Origin: a virus
Virus genome (UHGV): UHGV-1984318
Length of the DNA stretch: 10,041 nt
Reading direction: 5' to 3' (one strand)
Shown here: in pieces, positions 6,099-8,805 of the stretch
Layout of the letters: every line of letters starts with the position of its first letter
Numbering within the stretch: position 1 is the stretch's first letter
Program-made: the position numbers and the translations under genes
Notes under the pieces: generated by a model
What the model was told of the DNA's origin: nothing
The model's input: only the letters and a program-made list of their open reading frames with translations
Database searches by the model: none

Positions 6099-6419
6099 TT
6101 AGCGGTTGATGGTTGCTTTTTTCGGGTCATACCATCTCGGCCATTCTTTCAGGAATGGGAATGAGTCGGGAGCGTGGTTCTTTTTGTACGATTTAAGCAG
6201 CCTTAACCGCTCAATCGCACACTCATAAACCTCTTGTTGCCCTGTAGTCATCTCGGTCCATGAAAGGTGATCCATTGATAAGACAACGTTTTCAGCTTCT
6301 TTTATGAGGGCGTTTTTATTTCTCACCGCAGCAGCATGGCTGACAGAGCAATCCTGCCATATTCTTAAAAGCCAAATAGCTAAGCAGATGAAAAAAATGG
6401 TAGAGAGCGATATGTACAT
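6099..6419 (-). CDS. Hypothetical membrane-anchored protein, 106 aa (cargo gene 3)
   Basis: ATG at 6419-6417 with a strong SD (AGGAG, complement of 6426-6430, 6-nt spacing); stop TAA at 6101-6099. N-terminal hydrophobic segment MYISLSTIFFICLAIWLLRIW followed by a Trp/Pro/Lys-rich soluble region. AT-rich. No homologue recognised. Confidence 0.6.
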   Translation of the reverse strand: MYISLSTIFFICLAIWLLRIWQDCSVSHAAAVRNKNALIKEAENVVLSMDHLSWTEMTTGQQEVYECAIERLRLLKSYKKNHAPDSFPFLKEWPRWYDPKKATINR

Positions 6420-6443
6420 GCCGATCTCCTTAGATTTATCAAT

Positions 6444-6478
6444 GCTGCATGATTTTCAACAGACATCAATCATGCAGC
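6444..6478. repeat. Perfect 11-bp inverted repeat (gctgcatgatt / aatcatgcagc) with a 13-nt loop, between cargo genes 2 and 3
   Basis: 6444-6454 gctgcatgatt pairs perfectly with 6468-6478 aatcatgcagc. No U-tract follows on either strand, so it is not a canonical intrinsic terminator. Confidence 0.6.
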
Positions 6479-6499
6479 TATAGGTAATAAATCAAGAAA

Positions 6500-7012
6500 C
6501 TATTGAGAACGTTTGTCTTTTTGAGACTCTAATATAGCCAATACCTTATAAAGAGATTGGTTTGTTGAGTCTAATTTTTGATCAGTGTTATCAATCCTTG
6601 ACTGTAATACTGATTGGTTGTTTTGGATAGTAGCCATTATCTCTGCCTTACTGGTTTGGATGTTTCCTGTTAGCTCTTGTCGTGATGATTCAACTTTATC
6701 ATCTATAGTGCCTCGAATCGTCCATGTGGCGGCAACGATAGAACCAATGATAGCAACTGCAACCCCGTATAGCTCTAAACGTTTCACGGTATCACGACCT
6801 TCTTCTTTGTGTTGCTCTTCTTGTAGGCTAAATATTTGTGGTTCCTTTGACGGATTTCTGCCAGTTGGTCTGTAATACTCTGAATATTTAGCGTTTTCTA
6901 TTGAACTCCATAACGATTTGTCAAAGTCAAGGTTTTCATGTTGGCTTTGAGCATCTCCATAAATACTAGGTGATTTATTGTGAACATGTTGGTCAAACAT
7001 TATCTCCATCAC
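6500..7012 (-). CDS. Hypothetical single-pass membrane protein with coiled-coil-like C-terminal region, 170 aa (cargo gene 2)
   Basis: Minus-strand ORF with possible starts GTG 7012, ATG 7009 or ATG 7000; stop at 6500. One strongly hydrophobic helix LELYGVAVAIIGSIVAATWTI mid-protein, acidic/polar N-terminal ~80 aa, heptad-like Q/N/S-rich C-terminal ~70 aa. Its 5' end overlaps the 3' end of the upstream ORF. Sampled GC ~30-38%. Confidence 0.65.
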   Translation of the reverse strand: MMEIMFDQHVHNKSPSIYGDAQSQHENLDFDKSLWSSIENAKYSEYYRPTGRNPSKEPQIFSLQEEQHKEEGRDTVKRLELYGVAVAIIGSIVAATWTIRGTIDDKVESSRQELTGNIQTSKAEIMATIQNNQSVLQSRIDNTDQKLDSTNQSLYKVLAILESQKDKRSQ

Positions 7013-7340
7013 CCTTTACGAATTTTCCAGAAGAGATATTTTCACTAACTTTGTTTAAACTAAAAAAGTGGAAGAAACCGCAAGTGGTGCATTGCATGGC
7101 TACCATGTTAAGACTATCGTTGCTATAAGTATCTTGATTAACAGGATTATTAGGCAAGCTTTTACCTGGTATGGATGGTCCTATAACTTCAACACCATCA
7201 TCTTTTTTAAGATGCTCCGGTGCTAAAAGAGTCCAGTTTGTATTGCTGCATATTGGGCATACATAAGTTTTTTTGAATGAAGTCAAGTAATTACTAAAAG
7301 ACTCAAAAGTAACTTTTAAGTATTGCTCCTTACTGCTCAT
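6993..7340 (-). CDS. Hypothetical small four-Cys (CxxC..CxxC) zinc-ribbon-like protein, 115 aa (cargo gene 1)
   Basis: ATG at 7340-7338 shares one base with the mnt stop (TAATG on the minus strand); SD-like GAGG ~7 nt upstream; stop TGA at 6995-6993. Contains C-P-I-C and C-T-T-C separated by 53 residues. AT-rich. No homologue recognised. Confidence 0.6.
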   Translation of the reverse strand: MSSKEQYLKVTFESFSNYLTSFKKTYVCPICSNTNWTLLAPEHLKKDDGVEVIGPSIPGKSLPNNPVNQDTYSNDSLNMVAMQCTTCGFFHFFSLNKVSENISSGKFVKGDGDNV

Positions 7341-7579
7341 TATTGGCCTCGAATCTTCTTAAGTACGCTAATTGCAATATCCATTGCTTCCTTCTCTGTT
7401 TTTGTGAGATCTTGAGATGTCGATGGTATGACCTTTTCTCTGTTAATCTTAATCCATAGCTGTATTGCAGCTATGATTTCAGCATTGATAGAGCGCCTGT
7501 TTGTTGCCGCAATGTGAGTAAGCTGCTGCTTGATTTCACTTGGCATTCTTACGTTAAATTGTGGATCGTTTCTAGCCAC
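7340..7579 (-). CDS. mnt: Mnt-like ribbon-helix-helix repressor (maintenance-of-lysogeny repressor of the antirepressor), 79 aa
   Basis: GTG start at 7579-7577 with SD AGGAG (complement of 7586-7590, 6-nt spacing). N-terminus MARNDPQFNVRMPSEIKQQL..NRRSINAEIIAAIQ resembles P22 Mnt (MARDDPHFNFRMP..GRSMNSELLQIVQ as I recall), i.e. the RHH beta-strand and helices. Divergent from arc/ant, as in P22 immI. Confidence 0.85.
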   Translation of the reverse strand: MARNDPQFNVRMPSEIKQQLTHIAATNRRSINAEIIAAIQLWIKINREKVIPSTSQDLTKTEKEAMDIAISVLKKIRGQ

Positions 7580-7598
7580 GTCGCTCTCCTGTTATTTG

Positions 7599-7627
7599 TT
7601 GACATGCTAGAACGGTAGTAGTACGCT
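7599..7627 (+). promoter_or_regulatory. Pant-like promoter for arc-ant: -35 TTGACA (7599-7604), 17-bp spacer, weak -10 TACGCT (7622-7627)
   Basis: Consensus -35 hexamer; the -10 matches only the T-A....T positions. Lies ~45 nt upstream of the arc start. The arrangement (TTGACA-TG-TAGAA.. with operator sequence in the spacer) resembles my recollection of P22 Pant. Confidence 0.5.
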
Positions 7628-7632
7628 TTCAA
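7604..7632 (-). promoter_or_regulatory. Pmnt-like promoter on the minus strand: -35 TTGAAA (complement of 7627-7632), 17-bp spacer, -10 TAGCAT (complement of 7604-7609)
   Basis: Hexamers read on the minus strand with 17-nt spacing. The -10 overlaps the -35 of the divergent plus-strand promoter, as expected for face-to-face Pant/Pmnt. A start ~7597 would give a short leader to the mnt SD. Confidence 0.4.
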
Positions 7633-7653
7633 TAGTAGTACGGTGCTATCATT
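7604..7653. promoter_or_regulatory. Candidate Arc/Mnt operator region: TAG-rich repeats including a 10-bp direct repeat TAGTAGTACG (7616-7625 and 7633-7642) and an imperfect palindrome centred on 7642
   Basis: Direct repeat seen 17 bp apart. aatagtagtac-g-gtgctatcatt (7631-7653) is 8/11 symmetric about G7642, with core TAGTAC-G-GTGCTA. ATGCTAGAA at 7604-7612 resembles the left half of the P22 arc operator as I recall it. Confidence 0.45.
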
Positions 7654-7672: not shown

Positions 7673-7834
7673 ATGCAAGGCGCAAGAAAAATGCCGCAGT
7701 TCAATTTGCGGTGGCCTAAAGAAGTATTGGATTTGGTACGCAAGGTGGCGGAAGAGAATGGTCGGTCTGTTAACTCTGAGATTTATCAGAGAGTAATGGA
7801 CAGCTTTAAGAAGGAAGGGCGTATTGGCGCGTAA
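7673..7834 (+). CDS. arc: Arc ribbon-helix-helix repressor, 53 aa
   Basis: ATG at 7673 with SD GGAG at 7663-7666 (6-nt spacing); stop TAA at 7832-7834. Sequence [53 protein letters not shown] is nearly identical to P22 Arc as I remember it. The ORF-track start at 7643 is an upstream in-frame GTG without an SD. Confidence 0.9.
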
Positions 7835-7838
7835 AGTT

Positions 7839-7870
7839 GAAGCCCCAACTGCGGGAACAGTCAGGGCTTC
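7839..7870. other. Stem-loop in the arc-ant spacer: 7-bp outer stem gaagccc/gggcttc plus 4-bp inner stem actg/cagt
   Basis: 7839-7845 pairs with 7864-7870 and 7848-7851 with 7858-7861. Followed on the plus strand by a moderately U-rich tgttgt. This is the position where P22 has the sar antisense-RNA region; function here is not established. Confidence 0.4.
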
Positions 7871-7902
7871 TGTTGTCAGTAAATTCGTGGAGAAAAACCA
7901 AC

Positions 7903-8805
7903 ATGAATAGTATAGCAATTTTAGAAGCAGTGAACACCTCTTACGTACCTTTCAATGGTCAGCAGATTATCACCGCCATGACTGCCGGAGTTGCATATGT
8001 TGCGATGAAGCCAATCGTTGAAAACCTTGGAATGAGCTGGTCAACGCAGCAAACAAAACTCATGAAGCAGATTAGCAAATTCAACTGTGTTCATATGAAC
8101 ATGGTTGCCGCTGATGGTAAGCTTCGTAAGCTACTCTGCCTTCCTTTGAAGAAGTTAAATGGATGGCTGTTCAGCATCAACCCTGAGAAAGTTCGTGCTG
8201 ACATCCGCGATAAACTGATTCAGTACCAGGAAGAATGCTTTACTGTGCTGCATGACTACTGGACGAAGGGAAAGGCAGAAAATGCACGTAAGAAAACATC
8301 TGTTGATGACAGGACTCCGCTTCGTGATGCTGTAAATATGCTAGTCAGCAAAAAGCATCTAATGTACCCAGAAGCTTATGCAATGATTCATCAGCGTTTC
8401 AACGTGGAAAGTATTGAAGAGCTTGATTCATCTCAGATACCGCAAGCAGTAGAGTACATCCACAGGGTAGTGCTTGAAGGCGAGTTCATCGGCAAACAAG
8501 AGAAGAAAACCAACGAGCTTTCTGCAAAAGAAGCAAACAGCCTTGTATGGTTATGGGATTATGCCAACCGCTCACAGGCATTATTCCGCGAACTGTATCC
8601 GGCGCTAAAACAAATTCAATCGAACTATTCCGGCAGATGCTACGACTACGGTCATGAGTTCTCGTATGTTATCGGAATGGCGAGAGACGTTTTAATCAAT
8701 CACACACGAGATGTTGATATTAATGAACCAGACGGACCAACGAATCTTTCCGCATGGATGAGACTTAAGAATAAAGAATTACCTCCTTCAGTACATAACT
8801 ACTGA
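7903..8805 (+). CDS. ant: Antirepressor Ant, 300 aa
   Basis: ATG at 7903 preceded by GTGGAG (7888-7893); stop TGA at 8803-8805; 300 aa as I recall for P22 Ant; lies directly downstream of arc. The ORF-track start at 7837 is an in-frame TTG immediately after the arc stop, adding 22 residues that span the stem-loop and are probably not translated. Confidence 0.85.

What the first reader, a model, noticed from the sequence alone, without database searches (positions are those of the whole stretch)
7340..7653. Mnt homologue carries an Arc-like recognition residue (Gln where P22 Mnt has His) and the predicted operator is TAG-type rather than the P22 GTCCAC palindrome
The Mnt-like N-terminus here is MARNDPQFNVRMP; P22 Mnt as I recall is MARDDPHFNFRMP and Arc is ..[10 protein letters not shown]. 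In the classic Arc/Mnt specificity work the beta-strand residues (Mnt Arg2/His6/Asn8/Arg10, Arc Gln9/Asn11/Arg13) set operator choice. This Mnt has Gln at the His6 position, so both repressors in this phage present the same Q-x-N-x-R face. In line with that, the place where P22 has the symmetric mnt operator (AGGTCCACGGTGGACCT, from memory) here carries TAGTAC-G-GTGCTA (7636-7648). A 10-bp direct repeat TAGTAGTACG occurs at 7616-7625 and 7633-7642, so Arc-site-like and Mnt-site-like sequences share a core. This raises the possibility of cross-recognition or a rewired immI switch.
Basis: partly seen in the sequence, partly recalled or inferred. Interest (0 to 1): 0.55.

Follow-up and report, generated by a model that had tools for sequence, protein, structure and literature searches.

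The report
Variant P22 antirepressor switch, look-alike operators
This is the antirepressor control switch (mnt, arc, ant) of a P22-like E. coli prophage, in a natural variant where both small repressors carry the same DNA-reading residues and both operators belong to one sequence family, so the P22 textbook separation of the two repressors may not hold here.

Summary
The window is 99.5% identical to Escherichia phage N7 and carries a full immI module: mnt, overlapping Pmnt/Pant promoters, arc, sar RNA and ant.

Gln at Mnt position 6 is the common state of the family and P22's His is the minority. ST64T-type Mnt proteins have the same Arg2/Gln6/Asn8/Arg10 face but use GACCAC operators, so Gln6 alone does not make a TAG-type site. 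The base that tracks His-to-Gln is position -5 (T to A), the same adenine that Arc Gln9 contacts.

New here:
- This phage's Arc has Arg5 where P22 Arc has Ser5, matching Mnt Arg2.
- That change tracks a switch of the O1 centre from AGCAC to ACGGT.
- The motif TAnnAC-S-GTnnTA occurs only twice in the whole N7 genome, at O1 and O2.
- No P22-type Arc palindrome exists in that genome.
- Loci without arc keep O2 and lose O1.

I assign Mnt to O2 and Arc to O1. Cross-binding is plausible but untested. This is a new variant of a known kind, of moderate interest.

The parts
7340..7579 (-). mnt-like gene. GTG start, 79 aa. Ribbon-helix-helix domain followed by a C-terminal helix unrelated to that of P22 Mnt. 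Contact residues Arg2, Gln6, Asn8, Arg10.
   Evidence: ORF and translation. Pfam PF03869 Arc, E 4.8e-13. PDB 1MNT match over residues 2-41. 34% identity to P22 Mnt, alignable only in the N-terminal 45 residues. Predicted helices 14-26, 31-47 and 60-78.
7584..7589 (-). Shine-Dalgarno sequence (GGAGAG) for the GTG start of mnt.
   Evidence: Read from the sequence. The GenBank record of phage N7 instead starts the gene at Met12.
7599..7627 (+). Pant promoter for arc and ant. -35 TTGACA at 7599-7604, 17-bp spacer, -10 TACGCT at 7622-7627.
   Evidence: Gap-free alignment with the annotated P22 promoter. The -10 matches the consensus at only 3 of 6 positions and was not called by the scan. TACGCT is conserved in 19 of 20 distinct relatives.
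7604..7632 (-). Pmnt promoter. -35 TTGAAA at 7632-7627, 17-bp spacer, -10 TAGCAT at 7609-7604. It overlaps Pant face to face.
   Evidence: Promoter scan. Same position as the annotated P22 Pmnt.
7604..7624 (.). O1, ATGCTAGAAC-G-GTAGTAGTAC, centre G7614, core 7608-7620. It lies where P22 has the arc operator, between the Pant hexamers and over the Pmnt -10. The left half keeps the Arc TAGA box. The centre is ACGGT instead of AGCAC. The right half is GTrrTA followed by TAGTAC.
7632..7652 (.). O2, ATAGTAGTAC-G-GTGCTATCAT, centre G7642, core dyad TAGTAC-G-GTGCTA at 7636-7648. It lies where P22 has the mnt operator, 28 bp from the O1 centre, over the Pant start.
   Evidence: Phage Emek has the perfect dyad TAGTAC-G-GTACTA.
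7616..7625 (+). Copy 1 of the direct repeat TAGTAGTACG (right part of O1 and start of the Pant -10).
7633..7642 (+). Copy 2 of the direct repeat TAGTAGTACG (left half and centre of O2).
7673..7834 (+). arc, 53 aa, [15 protein letters not shown]... The recognition strand is the same as in P22 Arc, but the N-terminal arm has Arg5 where P22 has Ser5.
   Evidence: 150 of 162 nt are identical to P22 arc, and 6 of the 12 differences fall in codons 2-5.
7835..7902 (-). sar antisense RNA, between arc and ant.
   Evidence: Rfam RF00262, 91 bits, E 1.1e-19, full length.
7903..8805 (+). ant, antirepressor, 300 aa.
   Evidence: Pfam P22_AR_N (E 3e-45) and P22_AR_C (E 6e-30). Annotated as antirepressor in N7.
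6099..7340 (-). Three genes of unknown function downstream of mnt on the same strand (6993-7340, 6500-7012, 6099-6419), probably co-transcribed from Pmnt in the lysogen.
   Evidence: ORFs. PHROG families of unknown function. Co-transcription is inferred from the arrangement only.

Best explanation
The region is a working variant, which I call the N7/Emek type, of the phage P22 immI switch that controls the antirepressor Ant.

**Mechanism, inferred from geometry and homology with P22**
- In the lysogen, the Mnt-like ribbon-helix-helix repressor (contact residues Arg2, Gln6, Asn8, Arg10) is made from Pmnt.
- It binds the dyad O2 (TAGTAC-G-GTGCTA, centre 7642), probably as a dimer of dimers held by its own C-terminal helix.
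- O2 covers the Pant start. Binding shuts off arc and ant and so frees the overlapping Pmnt.
- After infection, Arc is made from Pant and binds O1 (TAGAAC-G-GTAGTA-GTAC, centre 7614). O1 lies between the Pant hexamers and over the Pmnt -10, so binding turns both promoters down.
- sar RNA adds antisense control of ant.

**What differs from P22**
- Mnt has Gln6 with A at -5 of each half-site. P22 has His6 with T.
- Arc has Arg5 in its arm with a C-G-G operator centre. P22 has Ser5 with G-C-A.
- Both proteins therefore carry Arg(-4), Gln(0), Asn(+2) and Arg(+4), and both operators fit TAnnAC-S-GTnnTA.
- Telling O1 from O2 must rest on very few positions: -3 is A in O1 and a pyrimidine in O2, and O1 has the extra TAGTAC on its right.
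- I expect weaker cross-binding, chiefly Mnt on O1. That would give Mnt negative autoregulation.
- The P22 repressors should not recognise these operators, which makes this a separate immI specificity class.

**Shown:** the sequences, their conservation and the covariation. **Inferred:** which protein binds which site, and all the regulatory consequences.
For: - **Module identity and layout:**
- **O2 goes with Q6-type Mnt:**
  - Every Gln6/Asn8 Mnt-like gene examined has an upstream dyad with A at -5 and AC-n-GT at the centre. These include distant Acinetobacter and marine loci that have no Arc partner.
  - A weight matrix built only from 30 half-sites of loci without a Gln9-type Arc partner ranks O2 first (19.1 bits) and O1 second (12.5 bits) among 38,812 positions of the N7 genome. 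The mean is -22.7 and the sd 8.0. The P22 operators score below zero.
- **O1 goes with Arc:**
  - Loci that have the N7-type Mnt but no arc keep O2 and have lost O1 (L091, L332, L333).
  - The left half of O1 changes with the partner repressor: TAGAAC with Gln9 Arc, TATTAC with Val9 or Asn9 Arc-like proteins, and other sequences with unrelated ribbon-helix-helix partners.
  - Arc Ser5 always goes with the centre AGCA[C/G]. Arg5 always goes with ACGGT, in 15 distinct protein/operator combinations.
- **Function is conserved:** in 20 distinct control regions the two mRNA leaders have diverged, but the 53-bp core is almost invariant.
- **Divergence from P22 is targeted:** arc coding DNA is 150/162 identical to P22 and the control region 32/54. 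Half of the arc differences lie in codons 2-5.
- **No other candidate sites:** TAnnAC-S-GTnnTA occurs only twice in the genome, and no TAGA-N5-TCTA is present anywhere.
- **Contact chemistry:** in the Arc-DNA crystal structure 1PAR, Gln9 contacts the A and Arg13 the G of TAGA (PMC12645479).
- **The module is in use in nature:** it is in isolated phages N7, HZ41 and Emek and in 41 of 5,426 complete E. coli genomes at 99% identity or more.
Against: - No binding data exist for any protein of this type. Every assignment is by analogy and covariation.
- The covariation rests on few independent lineages. The Ser5/AGCAC class is essentially one clade.
- ST64T-type Mnt has the same four contact residues but a GACCAC operator. 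Unidentified determinants therefore exist, and identical contact residues do not guarantee identical specificity.
- The right half of O1 is not a mirror image of its left half. As a dyad it lacks the G that Arc Arg13 contacts. As a flipped TAG box it would need Arc dimers to accept a direct repeat.
- The Pant -10 (TACGCT) is weak and was not called by the promoter scan.
- Tetramer formation by the new C-terminal helix is unproven.
Confidence: 0.6

Rival explanations
1. Full cross-recognition with a rewired switch. Both repressors carry Arg/Gln/Asn/Arg, so each binds both O1 and O2 with comparable affinity. Arc then represses Pant from two sites. Mnt represses its own promoter through O1. The P22 division of labour, in which Mnt spares Pmnt and Arc hits both promoters, is lost or is set only by protein concentration and oligomeric state.
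For: - The contact residues are identical.
- O1 matches inverted O2 at 15 of 21 positions, and O2 is the best match in the window to the P22 arc operator (16 of 21).
- O1 is the second-best Q6-Mnt-type site in the genome.
- A Phlomobacter locus (L203) has Gln-type Mnt and Arc genes flanking a single dyad, TATCAC-G-GTGATA.
- Other ribbon-helix-helix proteins accept directly and inversely oriented boxes (ParG; PMC3413123).
Against: - Arc-less loci lose O1 but keep O2.
- The left half of O1 is invariantly TAGAAC, and this half-site never occurs in O2. That points to discrimination at -3.
- ST64T shows that the same four residues can go with a different operator.
- L203 is a 1.6-kb contig from an endosymbiont-like genome and may be decaying.
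Confidence: 0.25
2. Strict orthogonality. Mnt binds only O2 and Arc only O1, exactly as in P22. The likeness of the two operators is a by-product of shared ancestry and shared chemistry and has no regulatory consequence.
For: - The geometry is the same as in P22.
- O1 and O2 differ consistently at -3 and in the TAGTAC extension across 20 distinct loci.
- Arc-less loci lack O1.
- The arms and the inward-facing strand residues differ: Arc has KMP and L/W, Mnt has NDP and V/M.
Against: - O1 scores 12.5 bits on an independent Mnt-type matrix, above every other position in the genome apart from O2.
- The consistent differences come down to only one or two base positions.
Confidence: 0.3
3. O1 is mainly a second, weaker Mnt operator, and Arc binds chiefly the left TAGA half-site or O2. 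In this reading the right half of O1 is an Mnt half-site that replaced the Arc one.
For: - The right half of O1 reads TAyyAC on the bottom strand in all variants, which fits the Q6-Mnt half-site repertoire.
- The centre ACGGT equals every Mnt operator centre.
- O2 is closer than O1 to the P22 arc operator (16 against 12 of 21).
Against: - The ACGGT centre is equally explained by Arc Arg5.
- O1 disappears when arc is absent.
- G7621 (+7 of O1) is invariant although it lies outside the Mnt-type core and outside both promoter hexamers. That fits a TAG box better.
Confidence: 0.12

Closest known systems
Phage P22 Mnt repressor and its operator Omnt (immI region)
   Same: - Divergent mnt gene with an N-terminal ribbon-helix-helix domain. 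Arg2, Asn8 and Arg10 are conserved.
- The operator sits at the same distance from the promoters, with the same ACGGTG centre, over the Pant start.
   Different: - Gln6 instead of His6.
- Half-sites are TAGTAC/TAGCAC instead of GGTCCAC.
- Only 34% identity overall, with no similarity after about residue 45, so the C-terminal helix is different.
- P22 Omnt scores -7.9 bits on the Q6-type matrix.
Phage P22 Arc repressor and its operator Oarc
   Same: - 48 of 53 residues are identical, including the strand PQFNLRWP.
- The left half-site ATGnTAGAA is kept at the same place between the Pant hexamers.
   Different: - The arm has Gln2, Ala4 and Arg5 where P22 has Lys2, Met4 and Ser5.
- The operator centre is ACGGT instead of AGCAC.
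- The right half is not the inverted TCTA box. No TAGA-N5-TCTA exists in the whole N7 genome.
ST64T / L / Gally-type Mnt (P22-like phages that have mnt but no arc or ant)
   Same: - Same Arg2/Gln6/Asn8/Arg10 face.
- A single dyad with A at -5 and an AC-n-GT centre upstream of mnt.
   Different: - The operator is AAGACCAC-n-GTGGTCTT.
- The helices and C-terminal domain are P22-like.
- There is no second operator.
Arc/Mnt hybrid repressors of Knight and Sauer (1989) and Raumann, Knight and Sauer (1995). Cited from my own knowledge and from the reference list of PMC3413123; the papers themselves could not be read.
   Same: A few residues N-terminal to the conserved Phe decide which operator is bound. 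The natural variants here differ from the P22 proteins at exactly those residues.
   Different: These variants are natural, they co-evolved with their operators, and they are found in many prophages. Their binding has not been measured.
ParG-type ribbon-helix-helix repressors that bind repeated boxes in direct or inverted orientation
   Same: O1 can be read as two TAG boxes 11 bp apart in direct orientation. PMC3413123 reports that ParG dimers bind directly and inversely oriented boxes.
   Different: The proteins are unrelated beyond the fold. This behaviour has not been shown for Arc.

Membership tests
Arc/Mnt ribbon-helix-helix repressors (Pfam PF03869) | Significant match to the Arc-like DNA-binding domain profile | tested here: met
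   Mnt-like protein E 4.8e-13 (49 bits, cut-off 20.4). Arc E 6e-31. PDB 1MNT E 2.4e-6 over residues 2-41.
Arc/Mnt ribbon-helix-helix repressors (Pfam PF03869) | N-terminal strand with alternating outward polar residues, followed by two helices | tested here: met
   The strand is PQFNVRMP. Helices are predicted at 14-26 and 31-47. The strand itself is not formed in the monomer model, as expected for a strand that pairs only in the dimer.
P22 Mnt proper | His6 and recognition of AGGTCCAC-G-GTGGACCT | tested here: not met
   The residue is Gln6. The P22 operator sequence is absent from the window. All 40 or so distinct His6 loci carry GGTCCAC dyads and no Gln6 locus does.
P22 Mnt proper | C-terminal tetramerisation domain homologous to P22 Mnt residues about 52-82 | tested here: not met
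   There is no sequence similarity beyond residue 45. A different C-terminal helix, 60-78, is predicted. Whether it makes tetramers cannot be tested with these tools.
P22-type immI module | Divergent mnt and arc-ant genes, with overlapping Pmnt and Pant and two operators 28 bp apart | tested here: met
   Gap-free alignment with the annotated P22 features. Pmnt was found by the scan.
P22-type immI module | sar antisense RNA between arc and ant | tested here: met
   Rfam RF00262, 91 bits, 7835-7902 minus strand.
P22-type immI module | Ant antirepressor with P22_AR N- and C-terminal domains | tested here: met
P22-type immI module | Location in the late operon between the ejection-protein genes and the tailspike gene (the 'ant moron' of PMC2629481) | tested here: met
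   PHROG hits for the needle and ejection proteins upstream. The tail protein gene follows ant in N7.
P22-type immI module | Arc operator built as the inverted repeat TAGA-N5-TCTA | tested here: not met
   Absent from the window and from the whole N7 genome. O1 has TAGAAC-G-GTAGTA instead.
P22-type immI module | Mnt and Arc bind separate operators without cross-binding | not testable with these tools
   This needs binding assays. On sequence, O1 and O2 belong to one motif family.

The most novel reading that the evidence does not exclude
In this widespread class of immI switches the two repressors have the same four base-contacting residues and bind one operator family, so they cross-bind. Mnt would occupy O2 tightly and O1 weakly, which gives negative autoregulation that P22 lacks. 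Arc would occupy both sites. The choice between the lysogenic and lytic states of the switch would then be set by affinity differences of one or two base pairs and by oligomeric state, not by orthogonal specificities. The natural pairs His6/T against Gln6/A at -5, and Ser5/GCA against Arg5/CGG at the centre, would give a usable recognition code for this ribbon-helix-helix family.
Probability: 0.3. Interest if true: 0.6.

Novelty: new variant of a known kind. Interest (0 to 1): 0.45.

Why it matters
- **Natural counterpart of engineered switches.** Arc and Mnt are the classic models for DNA recognition by a beta-sheet, but their specificity switches have so far been engineered. Here the switches are natural and paired with their operators. 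They span many prophages of Salmonella, Escherichia, Citrobacter, Serratia, Pectobacterium and Yersinia.
- **Testable contact rules.** The data suggest two: residue 6 of Mnt (9 of Arc) reads position -5, and the arm arginine reads the C-n-G centre.
- **Separate specificity classes.** The data define at least three immI classes: P22, ST64T and N7/Emek. These should behave as separate immunity groups when P22-like phages meet in one cell. That bears on prophage induction by superinfecting phages.
- **A circuit question.** It raises the testable idea that a two-repressor switch can work with non-orthogonal repressors.
- **A parts list.** The classes could supply ribbon-helix-helix repressor and operator pairs for synthetic circuits.

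Tried and rejected
- **Gln6 alone makes the operator TAG-type:** rejected. ST64T and Gally have Gln6 with GACCAC.
- **Other candidate determinants of the TAGTAC against GACCAC split:**
  - The Arg in NRRS at the start of helix B is rejected, because L108 has NGRS with a TATTAC operator.
  - Val9 against Leu9 is rejected, because L113 has Leu9 with TAGTAC.
  - Residue 3 is rejected, because Asp, Asn, Thr and Glu occur in both classes.
  - The determinant stays unidentified.
- **The 16-of-21 match of O2 to the inverted P22 arc operator as proof of an Arc site:** downgraded. The ATAG flank is shared with the P22 mnt operator context, and the right flank varies among relatives.
- **ACGGT at the O1 centre as proof that Mnt binds O1:** weakened by the finding that Arc Arg5 tracks it.
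- **Database scans:** the scans of species-representative genomes and of metagenomes with a family alignment used one narrow pattern. They gave only 4 and 37 loci, mostly distant relatives. These were useful for the general rule but not for the N7 type.
- **Primary papers:** those on Mnt and Arc specificity (Knight and Sauer 1989 and 1992, Raumann 1994 and 1995, Youderian 1983, the Stormo laboratory) are not in the library. The Arc contact details come second-hand from PMC12645479. My statement about Mnt Arg2 is from memory.
- **Prior descriptions:** no paper describing the immI region of N7, HZ41 or Emek was found.
- **Structure search:** no fold search was run on the model, because the Pfam and PDB sequence matches already settle the fold.
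Full report
**What the window is.** The window is 99.5% identical over the region to Escherichia phage N7 and HZ41, both P22-like phages of the genus Lederbergvirus. Genes for head closure, tail needle and DNA ejection proteins lie upstream. Then come three minus-strand genes of unknown function, the mnt-like gene (7340-7579, minus strand), a 93-bp control region, arc (7673-7834), the sar antisense RNA (7835-7902, Rfam 91 bits) and ant (7903-8805; both P22 antirepressor domains). The tailspike gene follows in N7. This is the immI region, called the 'ant moron' in the epsilon34 genome paper (PMC2629481).

**Checking the observation.** All the stated sequences are present at the stated coordinates.
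- The mnt-like ORF starts at GTG behind GGAG and reads MARNDPQFNVRMP.
- P22 Mnt reads MARDDPHFNFRMP. The annotated P22 operators are ATGATAGAAGCACTCTACTAT (arc) and AGGTCCACGGTGGACCT (mnt).
- The window aligns with P22 without gaps from the Pant -35 to the end of the mnt operator. TAGTAC-G-GTGCTA (7636-7648) therefore sits exactly where P22 has its mnt operator.
- The repeat TAGTAGTACG occurs at 7616-7625 and 7633-7642 only.

**Anatomy.**

| Element | Coordinates | Sequence |
|---|---|---|
| Pant -35 | 7599-7604 (+) | TTGACA |
| Pant -10 (17-bp spacer) | 7622-7627 (+) | TACGCT |
| Pmnt -35 | 7632-7627 (-) | TTGAAA |
| Pmnt -10 | 7609-7604 (-) | TAGCAT |
| O1, centre G7614 | 7604-7624 | ATGCTAGAAC-G-GTAGTAGTAC |
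| O2, centre G7642 | 7632-7652 | ATAGTAGTAC-G-GTGCTATCAT |

Pmnt was found by the promoter scan. O1 occupies the place of the P22 arc operator and O2 the place of the P22 mnt operator. The centres are 28 bp apart, as in P22.

Compared with P22, the promoter hexamers and the left half of O1 are kept. The O1 centre, the O1 right half and the outer parts of both O2 half-sites are replaced. Identity is 32 of 54 in the control region against 150 of 162 in arc coding DNA.

**How common this is.**
- All 61 close homologues of the Mnt-like protein carry DPQFNVRMP. They come from Salmonella, E. coli, Citrobacter, Serratia, Pectobacterium, Yersinia and others.
- The module is present at 99% identity or more in 41 of 5,426 complete E. 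coli genomes.
- Among isolated phages in the collection, only N7, HZ41 and Emek have it.
- Among the 150 best representatives from an exhaustive search with the ribbon-helix-helix domain, 114 have Gln at the Mnt-6 position and 10 have His. 109 have Arg four residues before it. The ranking favours proteins like the query.
- Gln6 is therefore the usual state and P22's His6 is the exception.

**Operators across the family.** I extracted the DNA upstream of more than 280 Mnt-like genes and listed the dyads centred on AC-n-GT.

| Mnt type | Upstream dyad |
|---|---|
| His6 | AGGTCCAC-n-GTGGACCT in all loci |
| Gln6, ST64T / L / Gally type | AAGACCAC-n-GTGGTCTT |
| Gln6, N7 / Emek type and more distant Gln6 proteins, including Acinetobacter loci with two or three tandem sites | TA[G/T][T/C]AC-n-GT[A/G][C/A]TA |
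| Gln6 with Arg8 | TGTCACAC-G-GTGTGACA |

Three points follow:
- Every Gln6/Asn8 class has A at -5, where P22 has T.
- In the Arc-DNA crystal structure, Gln9 contacts the A of the TAGA box and Arg13 contacts the G (analysis of 1PAR in PMC12645479). That A lies at -5 from the arc operator centre.
- The His-to-Gln change thus has a plausible structural reading. But it does not explain why ST64T-type and N7-type proteins, with identical Arg2/Gln6/Asn8/Arg10, use different half-sites. I tested three other candidate residues and none fits.

**Which protein owns which site.**

*O2 belongs to Mnt.*
- Its type follows the Mnt type whether or not an Arc is present.
- It is kept in loci that have lost arc and ant (L091, L332, L333).
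- A weight matrix built from 30 half-sites of loci without a Gln9-type Arc partner ranks it first in the whole N7 genome at 19.1 bits.

*O1 belongs with Arc.*
- It is lost in those same Arc-less loci.
- Its left half follows the partner protein. It is TAGAAC with Gln9 Arc, TATTAC with Val9 or Asn9 Arc-like proteins, and something else with unrelated ribbon-helix-helix partners.
- Its centre follows the Arc arm. P22-type Arc (MKGMSKMPQ, Ser5) always goes with AGCA[C/G]. Arg5-type Arc ([G/D]-A-R-[K/N/T]) always goes with ACGGT, in 15 distinct combinations.

Arc Arg5 lies four residues before Gln9, just as Mnt Arg2 lies four residues before residue 6. Every Mnt operator has the same AC-n-GT centre. 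From memory, Mnt Arg2 is an essential operator-contact residue (Knight and Sauer 1992, which I could not read). The inference is that the arm arginine reads the C-n-G centre in both lineages. Half of the nucleotide differences between this arc and P22 arc lie in codons 2-5.

**The unusual point.** In this phage both repressors carry Arg(-4), Gln(0), Asn(+2), Arg(+4), and both operators fit TAnnAC-S-GTnnTA.
- That motif occurs only twice in the 38.8-kb N7 genome, at O1 and O2. Expected 0.12, and no shuffle of 100 reaches two.
- A P22-type Arc palindrome, TAGA-N5-TCTA, occurs nowhere in that genome.
- O1 is the second-best Mnt-type site in the genome at 12.5 bits. The next position scores 10.6 and the mean is -22.7.
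- O2 is the best match in the window to the P22 arc operator.
- In 20 distinct control regions the consistent differences between O1 and O2 are few. Position -3 is A in O1 and a pyrimidine in O2. O1 has an invariant TAGTAC at +5 to +10, including G7621, which lies outside both promoter hexamers.
- The right half of O1 can be read in two ways. It can be a TAyyAC half-site in mirror orientation. It can also be a TAG box flipped about its local axis, because the skeleton TAnTAnTA is nearly symmetric and the box centres stay 11 bp apart. Other ribbon-helix-helix proteins accept both orientations (ParG; PMC3413123).

**Mechanism I commit to.** Mnt on O2 blocks Pant in the lysogen and thereby favours Pmnt. 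Arc on O1 shuts both promoters after infection. sar adds antisense control. All of this is as in P22, but with a different specificity class that the P22 proteins should not recognise: the P22 operators score below zero on the Q6 matrix. Weak binding of Mnt to O1 is likely and would give autoregulation. Binding of Arc to O2 is possible. None of this has been measured.

**Protein architecture.** The Mnt-like protein shares only the first 45 or so residues with P22 Mnt. DNA similarity to P22 begins inside mnt, at about codon 16, so there is a mosaic joint there. The model (mean pLDDT 77) has the two ribbon-helix-helix helices, a linker and a C-terminal helix at 60-78. This matches the layout of P22 Mnt, whose C-terminal domain makes tetramers (PMC3325190), but the sequence is unrelated.

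**Novelty and score.** I found no description of this immI type. It is a new variant of a known system. It is interesting to people who work on ribbon-helix-helix recognition and on phage immunity, but it does not change the picture. Interest 0.45.

Noticed in passing
window 7340-7579 and 7673-7834; L002 (N7, MH717096): The GenBank record of phage N7 starts the mnt-like gene at Met12 (68 aa). That removes the whole DNA-recognition strand. It also starts arc 12 nt too early (57 aa, [10 protein letters not shown]). The GTG at 7579 and the ATG at 7673 each have a proper GGAG upstream and match the homologues.
   Followed up: yes
L196, L201 and other RefSeq phage records; PHROG 2685 and 795: Mnt homologues are widely labelled 'partition protein ATPase' in RefSeq phage records and in two PHROG families. 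These are 80-aa ribbon-helix-helix repressors, so the label looks like a propagated annotation error.
   Followed up: partly
window 6099-7340, minus strand: Three genes of unknown function (115, 170 and 106 aa) lie directly downstream of mnt, where P22 has sieA, hkcC and orf59a. They are probably expressed from Pmnt in the lysogen. The 115-aa protein has CPIC...CTTC cysteine pairs and a weak zinc-finger hit. They are candidates for superinfection exclusion or defence.
   Followed up: partly
L197 (phage CUS-3) 680-1209; L325 856-1095: Some relatives carry two Mnt/Arc-family genes in tandem. CUS-3 has MSDRKYKNPQVNLRLP plus a P22-type Mnt that lacks its operator directly upstream. L325 has a second Arc-family gene after mnt, next to a HicA-like gene.
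   Followed up: no
L203 (Candidatus Phlomobacter contig, 1.6 kb): Gln-type Mnt and Arc genes flank a short control region with a single dyad, TATCAC-G-GTGATA, right after TTGACA. If both genes work, they must share one operator.
   Followed up: no
L202, L291, L297, L317: A further class of Mnt-like proteins (DPQFRIRLP, with Arg at position 8) goes with dyads of the type TGTCACAC-G-GTGTGACA. Their partner genes also start with an RHH-like strand. This is another natural specificity pair.
   Followed up: no
L112, L288, L296: This immI variant combines an ST64T-type Mnt operator (AAGACCAC-G-GTGGTCTC) with an Arc-like protein that has Val or Asn at position 9. Its O1 is the true dyad TATTAC-G-GTGGTA. 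Here the two operators differ clearly from each other.
   Followed up: partly
window about 7531: DNA similarity to P22 starts inside mnt, at about codon 16, and runs through arc. The rest of mnt is unrelated. A mosaic joint therefore lies within the gene, and the two recognition N-termini and their operators travel as one cassette.
   Followed up: partly
PDB 9pio chain G: A recently solved 79-residue 'Arc family DNA-binding protein' matches the ribbon-helix-helix domain weakly (E 0.004). I did not look into what complex it belongs to.
   Followed up: no
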